Notes under the pieces: model-generated
Databases searched by the model: none
What the model saw: the letters and a program-made list of their open reading frames with translations, nothing else
What the model was told of the DNA's origin: nothing
Origin: Naegleria gruberi
Lineage: Eukaryota
DNA: 3,633 bases
Strand: one strand, 5' to 3'
Assembly: GCA_000004985.1 (NCBI GenBank)
Contig: GG739217.1
Part shown: positions 1 to 3,633 of the stretch, piece by piece
How the letters are laid out: each line of letters opens with the position of its first letter
Position numbering within the stretch: the stretch's first letter is position 1
Translations under genes and position numbers: made by a program

Positions 1-400
1 ATGATATTAATAACATATCAGCTGGAAATGAACAATCTTCCTCAACCTTAACAATATCACCTACTTTTAAATCACATGTATATACTTGTTCAATCATATT
101 AATACCATTATTATTACTATTATTATTATTATTATTCATGGAATTATTTCCTCCTCTTCTTAATACATTTGTGGTCATCATGTTAATTTTACGATCATTT
201 AAATATCTGAGAAAATCTTCACCTCCCTCTCTTATCATATTCACTCCGATAATGAAAATTACAGGGAGAACTGCAGTGATGGGTGTGATGGGTGAAACAC
301 CTGGTATTAAGGCAAATATCATTGTAATGATAAAGTAAATATTACCAATTTTACATAATTGATATATTAAATTAAGAATTATAAAATTCCACCATGTATA
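1..400 (-). CDS. P4-type phospholipid-transporting ATPase (flippase), internal exon, partial; it continues beyond position 1. It encodes 'YTWWNFIILNLIYQLCKIGNIYFIITMIFALIPGVSPITPITAVLPVIFIIGVNMIREGGEDFLRYLNDRKINMMTTNVLRRGGNNSMNNNNNNSNNNGINMIEQVYTCDLKVGDIVKVEEDCSFPADMLLIS'.
   Basis: I reverse-complemented and translated by hand. The frame is open for 133 codons. Motifs of the Drs2/ATP8/ATP9 family are in the expected order and spacing: 'KY…F' before TM1, 'N-x-YF…IPGVSP' (TM1 and luminal loop), 'M-I-R/K-E-x-x-E-D…R…D…N' (TM2 exit), then 'VLR', 'VGDIV.V' and 'PADMLLIS'. The last matches the canonical 'PADLLLLSSSE', which is cut by the window edge. The other two minus frames and the plus frames are interrupted. 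Confidence 0.85.
107..136. repeat. (ATT)10 trinucleotide microsatellite with one ACT interruption. On the minus strand it is (AAT)n encoding the Asn homopolymer 'NNNNNNSNNN' inside the P4-ATPase CDS.
   Basis: Ten consecutive ATT units (one ACT) read on the plus strand and translated on the minus strand. The run sits between 'VLRRGG' and 'INMIEQVY…VGDIVKV', a position where P4-ATPases normally have only a short beta-hairpin. Confidence 0.85.
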
Positions 401-460
401 CTATTAGTTTACAACAATATTAAGATATAAATTATTTCAATGAGATTAATAATAACATAC
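401..460 (-). other. Spliceosomal intron of 60 nt, phase 0. Minus-strand sequence is GTATGTTATTATTAATCTCATTGAAATAATTTATATCTTAATATTGTTGTAAACTAATAG.
   Basis: On the minus strand the exon ends '…ACT ACA AAG' (…TTK) and is followed directly by GTATGT. At the other end, TAATAG is followed by 'TAT ACA TGG' (YTW…). Removing the 60 nt joins '…NYISTTK' to 'YTWWNF…', recreating the conserved P4-ATPase 'I-S-T-T-K-Y-x-x-x-x-F' motif, whereas read-through gives 'KVCYY*'. The intron is about 83% A+T. Confidence 0.7.
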
Positions 461-948
461 CTTTGTAGTAGAAATGTAATTGGATGAAAAGCGTTTTCTT
501 CTCAAACCTAAAAACCACTTTTTAGTAGCCTTTGAATTTAATTCCCAATTATTAATATGTACAATATGTGATTCACCTTCATCTTCCTCTTCTATGGTAT
601 TATTATTATCATGTTGTTCCGATAATTTAAATGAATTATTACAATTTGATCCTGGTAATGATGAGGTTGCTGATGTTGGCATATTACTATTAGGTGATTG
701 TAATATTATTATATTATTATTCTTATCATCTTGATGAGGTTGACCAGCTGATGATGGTGATTTAAGAATATTACTTGATTGATGAGGAGATTGTTGTTGA
801 TAATAATAAGGATGATCATCTAAATGTAAGGGATCCAACAAACCAACTGAACTTCTATTTGAAAAGGAATCTAATAATTCCCTATCTGATGATGAACCAC
901 CACTTGGAGTTGATACTCTATCTTTATGATAGTGTAAATCTATTGTTG
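461..948 (-). CDS. P4-type ATPase, upstream exon, partial; it continues 5' into the N-run. It encodes a Ser/Asn/Gln-rich low-complexity N-terminal tail, then '…SHIVHINNWELNSKATKKWFLGLRRKRFSSNYISTTK'.
   Basis: A 163-codon open frame abuts the N-run, in phase with the downstream exon across the 60-nt intron. 'HIVHINN' corresponds to the P4-ATPase 'R-x-I-x-x-N' start motif (Drs2 'PRIIHIND'). '…NYISTTK' corresponds to '…NHISTTKYN'. Codon usage (AGA, GGT, TTA, CAA, AAT) matches the downstream exon. The only in-frame Met visible is in '…SPNSNMPTSA…', and the true start may lie inside the N-run. Confidence 0.75.
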
Positions 949-2603
949 NNNNNNNNNNNNNNNNNNNNNNNNNNNNNNNNNNNNNNNNNNNNNNNNNNNN
1001 NNNNNNNNNNNNNNNNNNNNNNNNNNNNNNNNNNNNNNNNNNNNNNNNNNNNNNNNNNNNNNNNNNNNNNNNNNNNNNNNNNNNNNNNNNNNNNNNNNNN
1101 NNNNNNNNNNNNNNNNNNNNNNNNNNNNNNNNNNNNNNNNNNNNNNNNNNNNNNNNNNNNNNNNNNNNNNNNNNNNNNNNNNNNNNNNNNNNNNNNNNNN
1201 NNNNNNNNNNNNNNNNNNNNNNNNNNNNNNNNNNNNNNNNNNNNNNNNNNNNNNNNNNNNNNNNNNNNNNNNNNNNNNNNNNNNNNNNNNNNNNNNNNNN
1301 NNNNNNNNNNNNNNNNNNNNNNNNNNNNNNNNNNNNNNNNNNNNNNNNNNNNNNNNNNNNNNNNNNNNNNNNNNNNNNNNNNNNNNNNNNNNNNNNNNNN
1401 NNNNNNNNNNNNNNNNNNNNNNNNNNNNNNNNNNNNNNNNNNNNNNNNNNNNNNNNNNNNNNNNNNNNNNNNNNNNNNNNNNNNNNNNNNNNNNNNNNNN
1501 NNNNNNNNNNNNNNNNNNNNNNNNNNNNNNNNNNNNNNNNNNNNNNNNNNNNNNNNNNNNNNNNNNNNNNNNNNNNNNNNNNNNNNNNNNNNNNNNNNNN
1601 NNNNNNNNNNNNNNNNNNNNNNNNNNNNNNNNNNNNNNNNNNNNNNNNNNNNNNNNNNNNNNNNNNNNNNNNNNNNNNNNNNNNNNNNNNNNNNNNNNNN
1701 NNNNNNNNNNNNNNNNNNNNNNNNNNNNNNNNNNNNNNNNNNNNNNNNNNNNNNNNNNNNNNNNNNNNNNNNNNNNNNNNNNNNNNNNNNNNNNNNNNNN
1801 NNNNNNNNNNNNNNNNNNNNNNNNNNNNNNNNNNNNNNNNNNNNNNNNNNNNNNNNNNNNNNNNNNNNNNNNNNNNNNNNNNNNNNNNNNNNNNNNNNNN
1901 NNNNNNNNNNNNNNNNNNNNNNNNNNNNNNNNNNNNNNNNNNNNNNNNNNNNNNNNNNNNNNNNNNNNNNNNNNNNNNNNNNNNNNNNNNNNNNNNNNNN
2001 NNNNNNNNNNNNNNNNNNNNNNNNNNNNNNNNNNNNNNNNNNNNNNNNNNNNNNNNNNNNNNNNNNNNNNNNNNNNNNNNNNNNNNNNNNNNNNNNNNNN
2101 NNNNNNNNNNNNNNNNNNNNNNNNNNNNNNNNNNNNNNNNNNNNNNNNNNNNNNNNNNNNNNNNNNNNNNNNNNNNNNNNNNNNNNNNNNNNNNNNNNNN
2201 NNNNNNNNNNNNNNNNNNNNNNNNNNNNNNNNNNNNNNNNNNNNNNNNNNNNNNNNNNNNNNNNNNNNNNNNNNNNNNNNNNNNNNNNNNNNNNNNNNNN
2301 NNNNNNNNNNNNNNNNNNNNNNNNNNNNNNNNNNNNNNNNNNNNNNNNNNNNNNNNNNNNNNNNNNNNNNNNNNNNNNNNNNNNNNNNNNNNNNNNNNNN
2401 NNNNNNNNNNNNNNNNNNNNNNNNNNNNNNNNNNNNNNNNNNNNNNNNNNNNNNNNNNNNNNNNNNNNNNNNNNNNNNNNNNNNNNNNNNNNNNNNNNNN
2501 NNNNNNNNNNNNNNNNNNNNNNNNNNNNNNNNNNNNNNNNNNNNNNNNNNNNNNNNNNNNNNNNNNNNNNNNNNNNNNNNNNNNNNNNNNNNNNNNNNNN
2601 NNN
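949..2603. other. Unresolved or masked sequence: 1,655 consecutive N.
   Basis: Read directly from the sequence. Open frames on both flanks run into it, so it hides the 5' end of the P4-ATPase gene and the 3' continuation of the cyclase-like exon. Confidence 1.
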
Positions 2604-2705
2604 GATAAGATTGCATGACACATTTTCCTTTCAATCACACCAGCAATGACTGGTCCAGTATTCACACCAATTCTAATGTTCACAATGAGTTGATCATTCG
2701 AATTC
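2604..2705 (-). CDS. Coding fragment with a class-III nucleotidyl (adenylyl/guanylyl) cyclase catalytic-domain signature: '(RNSNDQ)[28 protein letters not shown]…', continuing 3' into the N-run.
   Basis: The hand translation matches the ORF track once GTG-as-M is corrected to V. '[14 protein letters not shown]' matches the cyclase-homology-domain consensus 'R-[IV]-G-[IV]-[HN]-x-G-P-V-[IV]-A-G-V-[IV]-G' in 11 of 14 positions against the mammalian AC C2 '[25 protein letters not shown]'. 'ERKMCHAIL' aligns loosely with '[10 protein letters not shown]'. The frame is open from the TGA at 2708..2710 into the gap. AG at 2706..2707 is a possible acceptor, but the upstream exon boundary is undetermined. 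Confidence 0.4.
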
Positions 2706-2795
2706 CTTCATATAAATCAATAGTTTATCATTCAAAGGATGAGACATTTCATAGAGTTTGTGATACCATAAATATATCTGTTGGATCCAAAACTG

Positions 2796-3479
2796 TTACA
2801 TTTTGGAAAATAAATTTTGTTGAGCATTGTAAAAGTTTCTTGTATTTTCTTGAGTTGAAGAAGTTAAGTAATCGGTCATTACTTCTTCAATACCAAAACA
2901 ATATTGAACTTTTGCATTGAATGTAATTGTAATGTTGAGCTGTTGCAAGTATAATAGAACAGATTCATATCTTAATAAGGAGTAAATTTGTTCAAATTCA
3001 CTAGGTTTAAGCTTTTCATTCCAATATCTGGTATCTCCGTATTGGGCTAAACCTGACAAACCAAAAAAGGTAAGAATTTCACCCAAATAAAAAGCTGAAA
3101 ATTGTAAATGACCAATCACATTTGAAAATAATCCAACATTTGTGAAAGTGAATAGGGCTGACTTGGCATTCTTATAAGTTTCATAATATAACATTCCACT
3201 ACATAATGGAATGATTAACGCAAGAATTCCAATAGCAATTACAAGTGTAACATTTGATTGAAGTGCCTTTGATACAATATTTGAATCTAGGGAAGCTTCC
3301 AATGTTGTTTTCTTATTCAATTGTTGATAAATTTTACCAATACAATCCTTGGAAATTTCCTTTTCAAATAATTTGACAATTCTTCTAAAATATAACAAAT
3401 CATATTGAATGTAGGCAATCAATGTACATATAAGCACCATTACACCGATTACAAGGTAAAAGAACCAACTCCGACTCAA
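2796..3479 (-). CDS. ORF of 228 codons for a polytopic membrane-protein segment. Hydrophobic spans are '[23 protein letters not shown]', '[23 protein letters not shown]' and '[37 protein letters not shown]'. The family is not recognisable with confidence and the 5' end is unresolved.
   Basis: Only one of the three minus frames is open across about 700 nt; the other two carry dense stops, as I checked by hand for 2800..3110. Codon usage matches the P4-ATPase exons. The ORF-track 'M' at 3479 is TTG, not ATG. The first ATG is codon 13 ('…GVMVLICT…'), inside the first hydrophobic span. The ORF ends at TAA 2796..2798. It is probably part of the same gene as the cyclase-motif exon, because that exon needs upstream exons on this strand. 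Confidence 0.5.
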   Translation of the reverse strand: [227 protein letters not shown]

Positions 3480-3633
3480 ACATCAAATTAAAAGTTGATG
3501 CCTTACTTCTGTCAACATAGGTATTACAAAAATCCTCATAAATCTGAGTGATTGGAAATTTGTTAAGCCACAAATAATGAAATTTGAAATAGGATACATA
3601 AATTGAGAACTCATCATTTTTTCAATAATTTCC

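What the first reader, a model, noticed from the sequence alone, without database searches (positions are those of the whole stretch)
3483..3633. A single in-frame TGA interrupts one continuous minus-strand reading frame (3633 to 2796), and the membrane ORF has no usable 5' ATG
Upstream of the TTG at 3479 the same frame reads '…EIIEKMMSSQFMYPISNFIICGLTNFQSLRFMRIFVIPMLTEVRHQLLI', then TGA at 3483..3485, then 'C-L-SRSWFFYLVIG…'. That is 49 stop-free codons reaching the window edge. In DNA of this A+T content a random frame is expected to stay open that long only a few percent of the time (rough estimate), so the upstream stretch is probably coding in the same frame. The hydrophobic helix 'SWFFYLVIGVMVLICT' starts before the first ATG, which also suggests the coding region begins further 5'. 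A good donor-like hexamer, GAA|GTAAGG at 3501..3506, lies just upstream of the TGA, but I found no acceptor that restores this frame. The explanations are a base-call error, a pseudogenising nonsense mutation, an in-frame intron I could not delimit, or a stop-codon reassignment. The last is unlikely, because TAA stops behave normally elsewhere in the window.
Basis: seen in the sequence. Interest (0 to 1): 0.5.

Follow-up and report, generated by a model that had tools for sequence, protein, structure and literature searches.

The report
Off-frame TGA in broken cyclase gene
The "in-frame" TGA is not in the real reading frame: this is an internal piece of a Naegleria gruberi membrane cyclase gene whose frame jumps four times on a tiny draft scaffold, through either gene decay or sequencing/cloning error, so it is ordinary.

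Summary
The sequence facts are correct: TGA at 3485..3483 on the minus strand, 49 stop-free codons upstream, and no early ATG. The reading "one continuous frame cut by a single TGA" is wrong.

The window is a 3633-bp Naegleria gruberi mini-scaffold made of 949 nt, 1654 N and 1030 nt. Its minus strand, 3632..2700, is an internal segment of a TmcB-type multi-pass membrane / PAS / adenylate-guanylate cyclase gene. The closest relative is an intact environmental homologue, L001.

Against that homologue and a 10-member family profile, the coding frame switches A>B at ~3577, B>A at ~3468, A>B at ~2804 and B>A at ~2765. The stretch 3576..3469 codes in frame B at 37.7 bits (E 5e-13), against -2.5 bits in frame A. 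The TGA is simply the overlap of conserved Leu-Met codons TTG|ATG. The "terminal" TAA at 2798..2796 is off-frame in the same way.

The copy also lacks a 41-residue conserved motif. About 355 codons are missing too (TM helix, PAS domain, first half of the cyclase domain).

Intron, recoding and frameshifting models were tested and rejected.

The cause is unresolved. I estimate a decayed pseudogene at about 50% and a Sanger read or clone artefact at about 40%. Either way this is ordinary and of low interest.

The parts
3579..3632 (-). Coding segment A1 in frame A (EIIEKMMSSQFMYPISNF). It corresponds to residues 485-504 of the L001 homologue and carries the family motif F-M-x-P-I-x-N-F.
   Evidence: Frameshift-aware alignment. 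DNA alignment. Family profile: 7.3 bits in frame A against -2.9 and -3.4 in the other frames.
3576..3578 (-). Frame break 1 (A to B). One base is missing relative to the homologue: window TTC-AT_-TAT, L001 TTC-ATG-TAT. An in-frame 6-nt gap lies just upstream.
   Evidence: Joined A1+B1 scores 52.3 bits against 41.9 for frame B alone. Frame B is closed 5' by TGA 3624..3622 and frame C by stops at 3616..3611.
3469..3576 (-). Coding segment B1 in frame B (YLWLNKFPITQIYEDFCNTYVDRSKASTFNLMFESE). It contains the off-frame TGA (3485..3483, which is TTG|ATG, Leu-Met) and the pseudo-donor GTAAGG (3506..3501, inside R-S-K-A).
   Evidence: 25 of 36 residues identical to L001. Family profile gives 37.7 bits, E 4.9e-13, in frame B against -2.5 bits in frame A. 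Invariant family columns F, LW, N and FC are all present.
3468..3468 (-). Frame break 2 (B to A): GAG-t-TGG. Either one extra base or two missing bases. The two-missing version restores equal length with L001 (ESE-x-WFFY against GSE-Y-YFY).
   Evidence: Nine other family members each independently place a B-to-A shift at 3450..3468.
2805..3467 (-). Clean central segment in frame A, 221 codons: transmembrane cluster plus the start of the second extracellular module.
   Evidence: No stops in frame A, against 13 and 16 stops in the two off-frames.
2963..2964 (-). Site of an in-frame internal deletion of about 41 residues. It removes the family signature LIYGD..K...P.IG.YP..D..(N)C.
   Evidence: tblastn shows a 40-residue gap. 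Profile columns 328-369 are absent. Nine highly conserved columns are lost.
2803..2804 (-). Frame break 3 (A to B). One base is missing within TTTTC_CAAAATG.
   Evidence: P0005 places the shift at 2813.
2764..2802 (-). Coding segment B2 in frame B (NVTVLDPTDIFMV). It contains the off-frame 'terminal' TAA at 2798..2796, which is GTA|ACA (Val-Thr).
   Evidence: 9 of 13 residues identical to L001's NGTILDPTEIFME. Profile: 3.6 bits in frame B against -3.5 in A and -3.4 in C.
2763..2766 (-). Frame break 4 (B to A): ATG-G__-TAT. Two bases missing, or one extra.
   Evidence: P0005 places the shift at 2775.
2700..2762 (-). Coding segment A3 in frame A (HKLYEMSHPLNDKLLIYMKEF), the end of the second extracellular module.
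   Evidence: 16 of 21 residues identical to L001. Matches paralogues P0005 at 898-918 and P0046 at 812-830.
2693..2699 (-). Junction of a collinear deletion of about 355 codons (TM helix, PAS domain, first half of the cyclase domain). The frame changes from A to C here, and frame A hits TGA at 2696..2694. The junction falls at a shared K-E-F motif; an EcoRI site GAATTC lies at 2705..2700.
   Evidence: In intact paralogues '..EF' and 'NIR[IV]GINTG' are 355-358 residues apart; in the window they are 5-6 codons apart. Family architecture.
2604..2692 (-). Cyclase catalytic-domain fragment in frame C (QLIVNIRIGVNTGPVIAGVIERKMCHAIL). It runs into the N gap, and the last ~9 residues deviate from the family's G.KKFAYDLWG.
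   Evidence: Pfam PF00211, profile positions 90-121, 22.1 bits. 13-15 of 17-20 residues identical to family cyclase domains.
950..2603 (.). Run of 1654 N, a scaffold gap between two read-length contigs.
1..949 (-). A separate downstream gene: the N-terminus of a P4-type (phospholipid-flipping) ATPase. It has one 60-nt GTATGT..TAG intron at 460..401. It is not part of the disrupted gene.
   Evidence: Pfam PF16209, 75.3 bits. Translation.

Best explanation
The minus strand 3632..2604 is an internal, non-functional-as-written remnant of a Naegleria TmcB-type membrane / PAS / adenylate-guanylate cyclase gene.

Relative to the ancestral reading frame, which is kept by every other family member, the sequence carries four small frame-breaking indels and two larger internal deletions.

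Small indels:
- -1 nt at 3577/3576
- +1 or -2 nt at 3468
- -1 nt at ~2804
- -2 or +1 nt at ~2765

Larger deletions:
- 41 conserved residues at ~2964
- about 355 codons at ~2697

The true frame is A>B>A>B>A>C. As a result, the TGA at 3485..3483 and the TAA at 2798..2796 are both read only in the wrong frame. The TGA is the overlap of conserved Leu-Met codons. It is not a nonsense mutation, a recoded codon, or part of an intron. The ORF has no ATG because it is mid-gene.

This part is shown; I put it at about 0.95.

The cause is inferred. I commit to a genuine decaying gene copy (pseudogene) in the N. gruberi genome at about 0.5. My reasons: base-calling errors cannot remove 123 nt and about 1.05 kb of collinear coding sequence, and two of the four small indels lie about 160-200 nt from a contig end, where Sanger reads are normally good.
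For: Identity of the window: a protein search returns 'predicted protein, partial [Naegleria gruberi]' at 99% identity, with a longest contig of 3633 nt.

The closest homologue, P0002 on L001, is intact.

Frame structure:
- A frameshift-aware protein-to-DNA alignment needs four shifts, at 3578, 3468, 2804 and 2763.
- DNA alignment localises them as 1- and 2-nt gaps.
- A family profile built without the window scores 3579..3469 at 37.7 bits (E 4.9e-13) in frame B and -2.5 bits in frame A.
- The reconstructed protein scores 316.9 bits against 237.2 uncorrected.
- Nine further family members each place the B-to-A shift at 3450..3468.
- A1 supports frame A upstream.

Family membership and architecture (TPR_TmcB, TM cluster, PAS, Guanylate_cyc).

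Deletions.

The neighbouring P4-ATPase on the same scaffold reads cleanly through to both contig ends.
Against: Against the pseudogene cause (the frame structure itself is not in doubt):
- All four small indels lie within about 205 nt of the ends of a 1030-nt contig. Under uniform placement P is about 0.025.
- The scaffold (949 nt, 1654 N, 1030 nt) looks like the two end reads of a single ~3.6-kb Sanger clone, which would mean single-pass coverage.
- The restored frames contain no nonsense codon in about 343 codons.
- 18 of 21 retained highly conserved columns are unchanged. That is the same as intact family members, which show 2-6 differences. There is no sign of neutral substitution decay.
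- No independent copy of the locus could be found to confirm the lesions.
Confidence: 0.5

Rival explanations
1. Technical artefact. The gene is intact in the organism. The small indels are single-pass Sanger base-calling errors near read ends. The two large deletions arose in the E. coli plasmid clone or through misassembly, on a scaffold that rests on one clone from a poorly sampled region.
For: - The N. gruberi NEG-M genome was Sanger-sequenced (PMC9928731).
- The scaffold geometry is two read-length contigs around an N gap.
- The indels cluster at contig ends and the central 660 nt is clean.
- There are no nonsense codons, and conservation at invariant columns is normal.
- Neither gene on the scaffold is represented elsewhere among N. 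gruberi proteins, so the region is under-sampled.
- The ~355-codon junction falls on a shared K-E-F motif, which would allow a short-repeat deletion in a clone.
Against: - Base-calling cannot delete 123 nt and about 1.05 kb. Two separate collinear clone deletions plus four base-call errors must all be invoked.
- Whichever direction the read runs, two indels sit about 160-200 nt from a contig end, normally the best part of a Sanger read.
- The cyclase motif reads cleanly right up to about 25 nt from the gap.
- The partner contig (1..949) shows no frame problem.
Confidence: 0.4
2. A short spliceosomal intron removes the TGA and keeps frame A. Candidates are GT 3516 to AG 3475 or 3469 (42 or 48 nt, the same size class as the 41- and 46-nt introns of L001), or GT 3597 to AG 3475 or 3469 (123 or 129 nt).
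For: Eight GT..AG pairs give a stop-free frame-A product. Tiny introns exist in this lineage.
Against: - The best intron model scores 217.6 bits against 273.2 for the frameshift model.
- The sequence that would be spliced out encodes, in frame B, the family-conserved YLW.N...FC..Y[VL][DE].S block at E 5e-13.
- The donors GTTGAC and GTATCC are non-consensus, compared with GTAAGT and GTATGT in the confirmed introns.
- The retained frame-A peptide IICGLTNFQSLRFMRIFVIP has no homology.
Confidence: 0.03
3. Translational recoding. Either TGA is read as an amino acid (reassignment, selenocysteine or readthrough), or the ribosome shifts frame by programme at the four sites, making a full protein from the sequence as written.
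For: A formal X_XXY_YYZ heptamer, A_AAT_TTC, lies at 3585..3579, right at frame break 1 (seen in the sequence).
Against: - Homologues do not align to frame A around the TGA at all, so there is no sense position to recode.
- The restored frames contain no in-frame TGA.
- There are no SECIS or frameshift-element matches in Rfam.
- There is no downstream RNA structure: z = 0.12, with 107 of 200 shuffles folding as well.
- Sites 2-4 have no known slippery or +1 signals.
- Four shifts in alternating directions would be unprecedented.
- Recoding cannot restore the deleted PAS domain and cyclase half.
Confidence: 0.02

Closest known systems
Environmental Naegleria-like homologue on ENA metagenome contig ERZ929261 k127_518135 (L001; protein P0002)
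   Same: 57-71% amino-acid identity. Collinear from residue 485 to 840: extracellular module a, TM cluster, extracellular module b. It carries the N-terminal TPR_TmcB domain (PF25474).
   Different: L001 is one uninterrupted frame across three exons, with 41- and 46-nt GTAAGT..AG introns. It keeps the LIYGD...NC motif, and it continues after ..MNEF into a TM helix and cyclase linker.
N. gruberi paralogues XP_002674868.1 (P0005), XP_002675054.1 (P0046), XP_002676156.1 'adenylate/guanylate cyclase' (P0009) and XP_002682792.1 (P0010), plus N. lovaniensis and N. fowleri members
   Same: The same family-specific membrane/extracellular modules, and the same cyclase motif NIR[IV]G[IV]NTG..[IV]AGVI.
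   Different: They are only about 25-40% identical and are full length (1300-1700 aa) with intact PAS and complete Guanylate_cyc domains. The window copy is frame-broken and lacks PAS and the first ~90 profile positions of the cyclase domain.
Ordinary unitary or duplicated pseudogenes, and frameshift errors in low-coverage draft assemblies
   Same: Homology to a functional family that can only be followed by switching frames, with internal deletions and apparent premature stops that are really off-frame codons.
   Different: For a pseudogene, it is unusual that only indels are seen, with no nonsense codon and no excess change at invariant positions. For pure read error, the two large deletions are unusual.
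Programmed -1/+1 ribosomal frameshifting (viral X_XXY_YYZ sites, Euplotes +1 sites)
   Same: The frame changes within a gene, and a formal slippery heptamer lies at the first break.
   Different: There is no stimulatory structure, no signals at the other three sites, the directions alternate, and the gene is deleted downstream.

Membership tests
Naegleria TmcB-type membrane/PAS adenylate-guanylate cyclase family | Family-specific extracellular and transmembrane modules (F-M-N-P..F.M.LW.N..FC; KD.IGKIY; ..E..N; MS.PL..K....EF) | tested here: met
   Reconstructed protein scores 316.9 bits (E 1e-97) against a 10-member profile. Alignment.
Naegleria TmcB-type membrane/PAS adenylate-guanylate cyclase family | N-terminal TPR_TmcB domain (PF25474) | not testable with these tools
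   It would lie 5' of position 3633, beyond the scaffold. It is present in L001 and the paralogues.
Naegleria TmcB-type membrane/PAS adenylate-guanylate cyclase family | PAS domain between the last TM helix and the cyclase domain | tested here: not met
   'MKEF' (2700) is followed within 6 codons by the mid-cyclase motif. About 355 residues, including PAS, are absent.
Naegleria TmcB-type membrane/PAS adenylate-guanylate cyclase family | Complete class III cyclase catalytic domain (PF00211) | tested here: not met
   Only profile positions 90-121 of 183 are present before the N gap, and positions 1-89 are missing. The C-terminal part is hidden in the gap.
Naegleria TmcB-type membrane/PAS adenylate-guanylate cyclase family | Single uninterrupted reading frame | tested here: not met
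   Four frame changes plus one at the deletion junction.
Pseudogene | Frame-disrupting lesions and loss of conserved segments relative to functional relatives | tested here: met
Pseudogene | Relaxed constraint: nonsense codons, or excess change at invariant positions | tested here: not met
   No stops in the restored frames. 18 of 21 conserved columns are retained, within the range of intact members. Statistical power is low.
Pseudogene | Lesions confirmed in independent sequence of the same genome | not testable with these tools
   No second copy was found. Reads and traces are not available here.
Spliceosomal intron containing the TGA | GT..AG removal restores the frame, and the removed sequence is non-coding | tested here: not met
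   Frame-restoring GT..AG pairs exist. However, the removed sequence matches the family profile in frame B (E 5e-13), and the intron models score 55-60 bits lower.
TGA recoding (reassignment / selenocysteine / readthrough) | Homologues align in the TGA's frame with a sense (Cys/Sec/Trp) residue at that position; a SECIS element is present | tested here: not met
   Frame A around the TGA scores -2.5 bits. In the real frame the bases are TTG|ATG (Leu-Met), which is conserved in L001. No Rfam hit.
Programmed ribosomal frameshifting | Slippery site plus downstream stimulatory structure at each shift | tested here: not met
   A heptamer, A_AAT_TTC, is present at site 1 only. The downstream fold has z = 0.12. 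No signals at sites 2-4. No Rfam element.

The most novel reading that the evidence does not exclude
The four frame changes are genuine in the genome, and the cell still makes a continuous protein across them. This could happen by programmed -1/+1 frameshifting (a formal A_AAT_TTC heptamer sits at the first break), by nucleotide-insertion editing of the mRNA, or by intronisation of the damaged stretch (GT 3597 .. AG 3469). Any of these would be a first for nuclear genes of Heterolobosea.
Probability: 0.02. Interest if true: 0.7.

Novelty: not a real feature. Interest (0 to 1): 0.08.

Why it matters
It matters mainly as a caution. An apparently long open frame "interrupted by one stop" in AT-rich draft sequence can be the product of two compensating frame breaks, and only comparison with homologues reveals this.

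Practical consequences:
- The GenBank model on this scaffold (predicted protein, partial) is a chimera. It joins a cyclase remnant to a P4-ATPase across an N gap and should not be used as a family member.
- If the lesions are real, this is one more dead copy in Naegleria's very large cyclase repertoire.
- If they are artefacts, N. gruberi has one more TmcB-type cyclase and one more P4-ATPase, both missing from the main assembly.

Neither outcome changes current understanding.

Tried and rejected
1. Stop-codon reassignment or a ciliate-type code. The clean 221-codon stretch uses CAA/CAG for Gln and has no in-frame TAA, TAG or TGA. The organism is N. gruberi, which uses the standard code.

2. 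GTAAGG (3506..3501) as a splice donor. It lies in conserved codons R-S-K-A of frame B.

3. All GT..AG introns that restore frame A. Rejected on profile score and on coding homology inside the proposed intron.

4. Treating the Pfam cyclase hit (22.1 bits against a cutoff of 21.9) as a chance match to the TM helix that follows in L001. Rejected after family members showed the same NIR[IV]G[IV]NTG..AGVI motif in their own C-terminal cyclase domains. The fragment is real, and a ~355-codon deletion follows from that.

5. The first guess about the organism (Dictyostelium, Plasmodium or a ciliate guanylate cyclase/ATPase fusion) was wrong.

6. Searches for an independent copy of the locus all returned nothing. 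These were exact-product look-ups of the ATG- and TTG-start ORFs and of P0001, a JGI metagenome protein scan and a degenerate DNA pattern scan.

7. Synteny through P4-ATPase homologues. In L002 the upstream neighbour is a RING-finger gene, not a cyclase, so this was uninformative.

8. A stimulatory RNA structure for frameshifting and Rfam elements. None found.

Full report
**1. The observation**

The sequence facts are as described. On the minus strand, the frame that starts at 3632 (frame A) is open for 49 codons. It then has TGA at 3485..3483 and continues C-L-SRSWFFYLVIGVMVLICT... to TAA at 2798..2796. TTG is at 3479..3477 and the first ATG is 13 codons later. GTAAGG is at 3506..3501.

With the local composition, an independent-base model gives 8.0% stops per codon and P(49 open) = 0.017. 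As shown below, that "something" accounts for only 18 of the 49 codons.

**2. What the window is**

A protein search with the conceptual translation returned 'predicted protein, partial [Naegleria gruberi]' at 99% identity, with a longest contig of 3633 nt (P0001). The window is therefore that whole N. gruberi mini-scaffold.

The same search returned a 342-aa protein from an ENA metagenome at 57% identity (P0002).

The scaffold consists of 949 nt, 1654 N and 1030 nt. The N. gruberi NEG-M genome was Sanger-sequenced, is 40.9 Mb and has 35% GC (PMC9928731).

**3. The key comparison**

P0002 lies on a 2845-nt contig, L001. This carries a three-exon gene fragment with 41- and 46-nt GTAAGT..AG introns.

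Across the disputed region the L001 protein reads ...SKPFMFPISNYNFMYLWLNKFGITRIYEDFCNAYVERSKKSTVTLMAGSEYYFYATIGLMIVIGLLLIAYIQYDLL...

In the window:
- FMYPISNF is in frame A.
- YLWLNKFPITQIYEDFCNTYVDRSKASTFNLMFESE is in frame B. Frame B starts at 3633 and corresponds to ORF 3400..3573.
- WFFYLVIGVMVLICTLIAYIQYDLL is in frame A again.

A frameshift-aware protein-to-DNA alignment needs four frame changes, at about 3578, 3468, 2804 and 2763. It covers L001 residues 485-840.

Nucleotide alignment localises the changes as follows:

| Site | Window | L001 | Change |
|---|---|---|---|
| 1 | TTC-AT_-TAT | TTC-ATG-TAT | one base missing |
| 2 | GAG-t-TGG | | one extra base, or two missing |
| 3 | TTTTC_CAAAATG | | one base missing |
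| 4 | ATG-G__-TAT | | two bases missing |

**4. Independent support from the family**

An exhaustive search with P0002 found 45 relatives. The named ones are N. gruberi, N. lovaniensis and N. fowleri proteins of 1300-1700 aa. Several are annotated as adenylate/guanylate cyclase.

Their architecture is TPR_TmcB (PF25474), a multi-TM region with two extracellular modules, a PAS domain, and Guanylate_cyc.

Nine of these proteins, each aligned on its own, all place a B-to-A shift at 3450..3468.

A profile built from ten family members, without the window, gave these scores:

| Sequence scored | Bits |
|---|---|
| 3579..3469, frame B | 37.7 (E 4.9e-13) |
| 3579..3469, frame A | -2.5 |
| Four-shift reconstruction | 316.9 |
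| Uncorrected frame A | 237.2 |
| Upstream 18 codons, frame A | 7.3 |
| Upstream 18 codons, frames B and C | -2.9 and -3.4 |
| A1+B1 joined | 52.3 |
| Frame B alone | 41.9 |

Frames B and C are both closed by stops between 3624 and 3611. A gene that continues 5' must therefore be in frame A at the scaffold edge.

**5. Consequences for the finding**

- The TGA at 3485..3483 is the last two bases of a Leu codon (TTG, 3486..3484) plus the first base of a Met codon (ATG, 3483..3481) in frame B. L001 has Leu-Met at the same place.
- The TGA is therefore not an in-frame stop, not a nonsense mutation and not a recoded codon.
- Of the 49 open codons, 18 are genuine frame-A coding. The other 31 are an off-frame reading that stays open with probability of roughly 0.08-0.12.
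- GTAAGG lies in codons R-S-K-A of the conserved '[DE][RK]S' block.
- The ORF lacks an ATG because it is mid-gene. The homologue has about 485 residues upstream.
- The ORF's 'terminal' TAA (2798..2796) is also off-frame: it is GTA|ACA, Val-Thr, of NVTVLDP. Homology continues past it to ..MSHPLNDKLLIYMKEF at 2700.

**6. Further lesions**

- Relative to all family members, the window lacks 41 residues that include the near-invariant LIYGD..K...P.IG.YP..D..NC signature, at ~2964/2963.
- After MKEF the sequence jumps, in a third frame, straight to NIRIGVNTGPVIAGVI. This is Pfam PF00211 positions 90-121.
- In intact paralogues that motif lies 355-358 residues downstream of the ..EF motif. A TM helix, the PAS domain and the first half of the catalytic domain are therefore absent.
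- As written, the locus cannot encode a working cyclase.

**7. Rival readings tested**

- Introns: eight GT..AG introns restore frame A, including 42- and 48-nt ones of lineage-typical size. They score 55-60 bits below the frameshift model and would splice out sequence that is demonstrably coding in frame B.
- Rfam: no SECIS or frameshift element was found.
- Programmed frameshifting: a formal slippery heptamer, A_AAT_TTC (3585..3579), coincides with break 1. However, the downstream RNA is unstructured (z = 0.12), the other three sites have no signals, and the shifts alternate in direction.

**8. Cause of the lesions: unresolved**

Points favouring a true pseudogene:
- The two large collinear deletions cannot be base-calling errors.
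- Two of the small indels lie 160-200 nt from a contig end.
- The partner contig encoding the P4-ATPase reads cleanly.

Points favouring an artefact:
- The scaffold looks like one Sanger clone's two end reads.
- All small indels lie within about 205 nt of contig ends (P about 0.025 if placement were uniform).
- There is no nonsense codon in about 343 restored codons.
- 18 of 21 highly conserved columns are intact, as in functional members.
- Neither gene on the scaffold is represented elsewhere in the N. gruberi protein set. This fits an under-sampled, possibly clone-unstable region.

No independent copy of the locus could be found.

My estimates are pseudogene about 0.5, read/clone artefact about 0.4, intron about 0.03 and recoding about 0.02.

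**9. Verdict**

Its core claim, one frame interrupted by one TGA, is wrong. What is really there is a frame-broken, internally deleted fragment of a known Naegleria cyclase family on a low-grade scaffold. This is ordinary and of low interest.

Noticed in passing
window 2796..2798 and 2764..2802 (minus strand): The TAA that ends the 227-codon ORF is also off-frame. It spans GTA|ACA of NVTVLDPTDIFM in frame B. Homology to the family continues another ~100 nt, to MKEF at 2700.
   Followed up: yes
window ~2963/2964 (minus strand): An in-frame loss of about 41 residues. The lost segment contains the family's most conserved extracellular signature (LIYGD..K...P.IG.YP..D..NC). In L001 a 46-nt intron sits inside the corresponding region.
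   Followed up: partly
window 2604..2705 (minus strand): A mid-domain cyclase motif (NIRIGVNTGPVIAGVI, frame C) follows MKEF directly, so about 355 codons are missing. The junction coincides with a K-E-F motif that occurs at both deletion ends in paralogues, and with an EcoRI site, GAATTC, at 2705..2700. The last ~9 codons before the gap (ERKMCHAIL) deviate from the family's G.KKFAYDLWG.
   Followed up: partly
window 1..949 (minus strand): N-terminus of a P4-type phospholipid-flipping ATPase (PF16209, 75 bits). It has a 60-nt GTATGT..TAG intron at 460..401 and an Asn-rich insert (NNSMNNNNNNSNNNG). Its frame is open all the way up to the N gap. No near-identical N. gruberi protein exists in the database, so this gene too seems to be represented only on this scaffold.
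   Followed up: partly
window ~921..2799 (P0001 gene model): The deposited N. gruberi protein model joins ...NLFSK (cyclase remnant) to IVSTPSGG... (upstream of the P4-ATPase). It does this by treating ~1.9 kb, including the 1654-N gap, as an intron from the GT at 2799. This is almost certainly a chimeric, artefactual model of two genes.
   Followed up: partly
window 3579..3585 (minus strand): A formal -1 slippery heptamer, A_AAT_TTC, in frame A, exactly at the first frame break. There is no downstream structure (z = 0.12). I judge it a coincidence in AT-rich sequence.
   Followed up: yes
L001 1118..1158 and 2193..2238: Very short spliceosomal introns (41 and 46 nt, GTAAGT..AG) in the environmental Naegleria-like homologue. 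The gene caller had split that gene into three separate 'genes'.
   Followed up: partly
L001 protein residues ~425-545 versus ~760-845; window 2700..2935: The two extracellular modules of the family look like an internal duplication. Both have an N-L-T-(F/L)-x-(A/T)-K-(V/I) motif early on and end in F-M-x-x-F / Y-x-x-F-x-x-x-S just before a TM helix.
   Followed up: no
L002 (Logan SRR32607936 contig, 3498 nt): The closest P4-ATPase N-terminus homologue (62% identity) has a RING-finger gene upstream, not a cyclase. So there is no conserved cyclase/P4-ATPase neighbourhood.
   Followed up: partly
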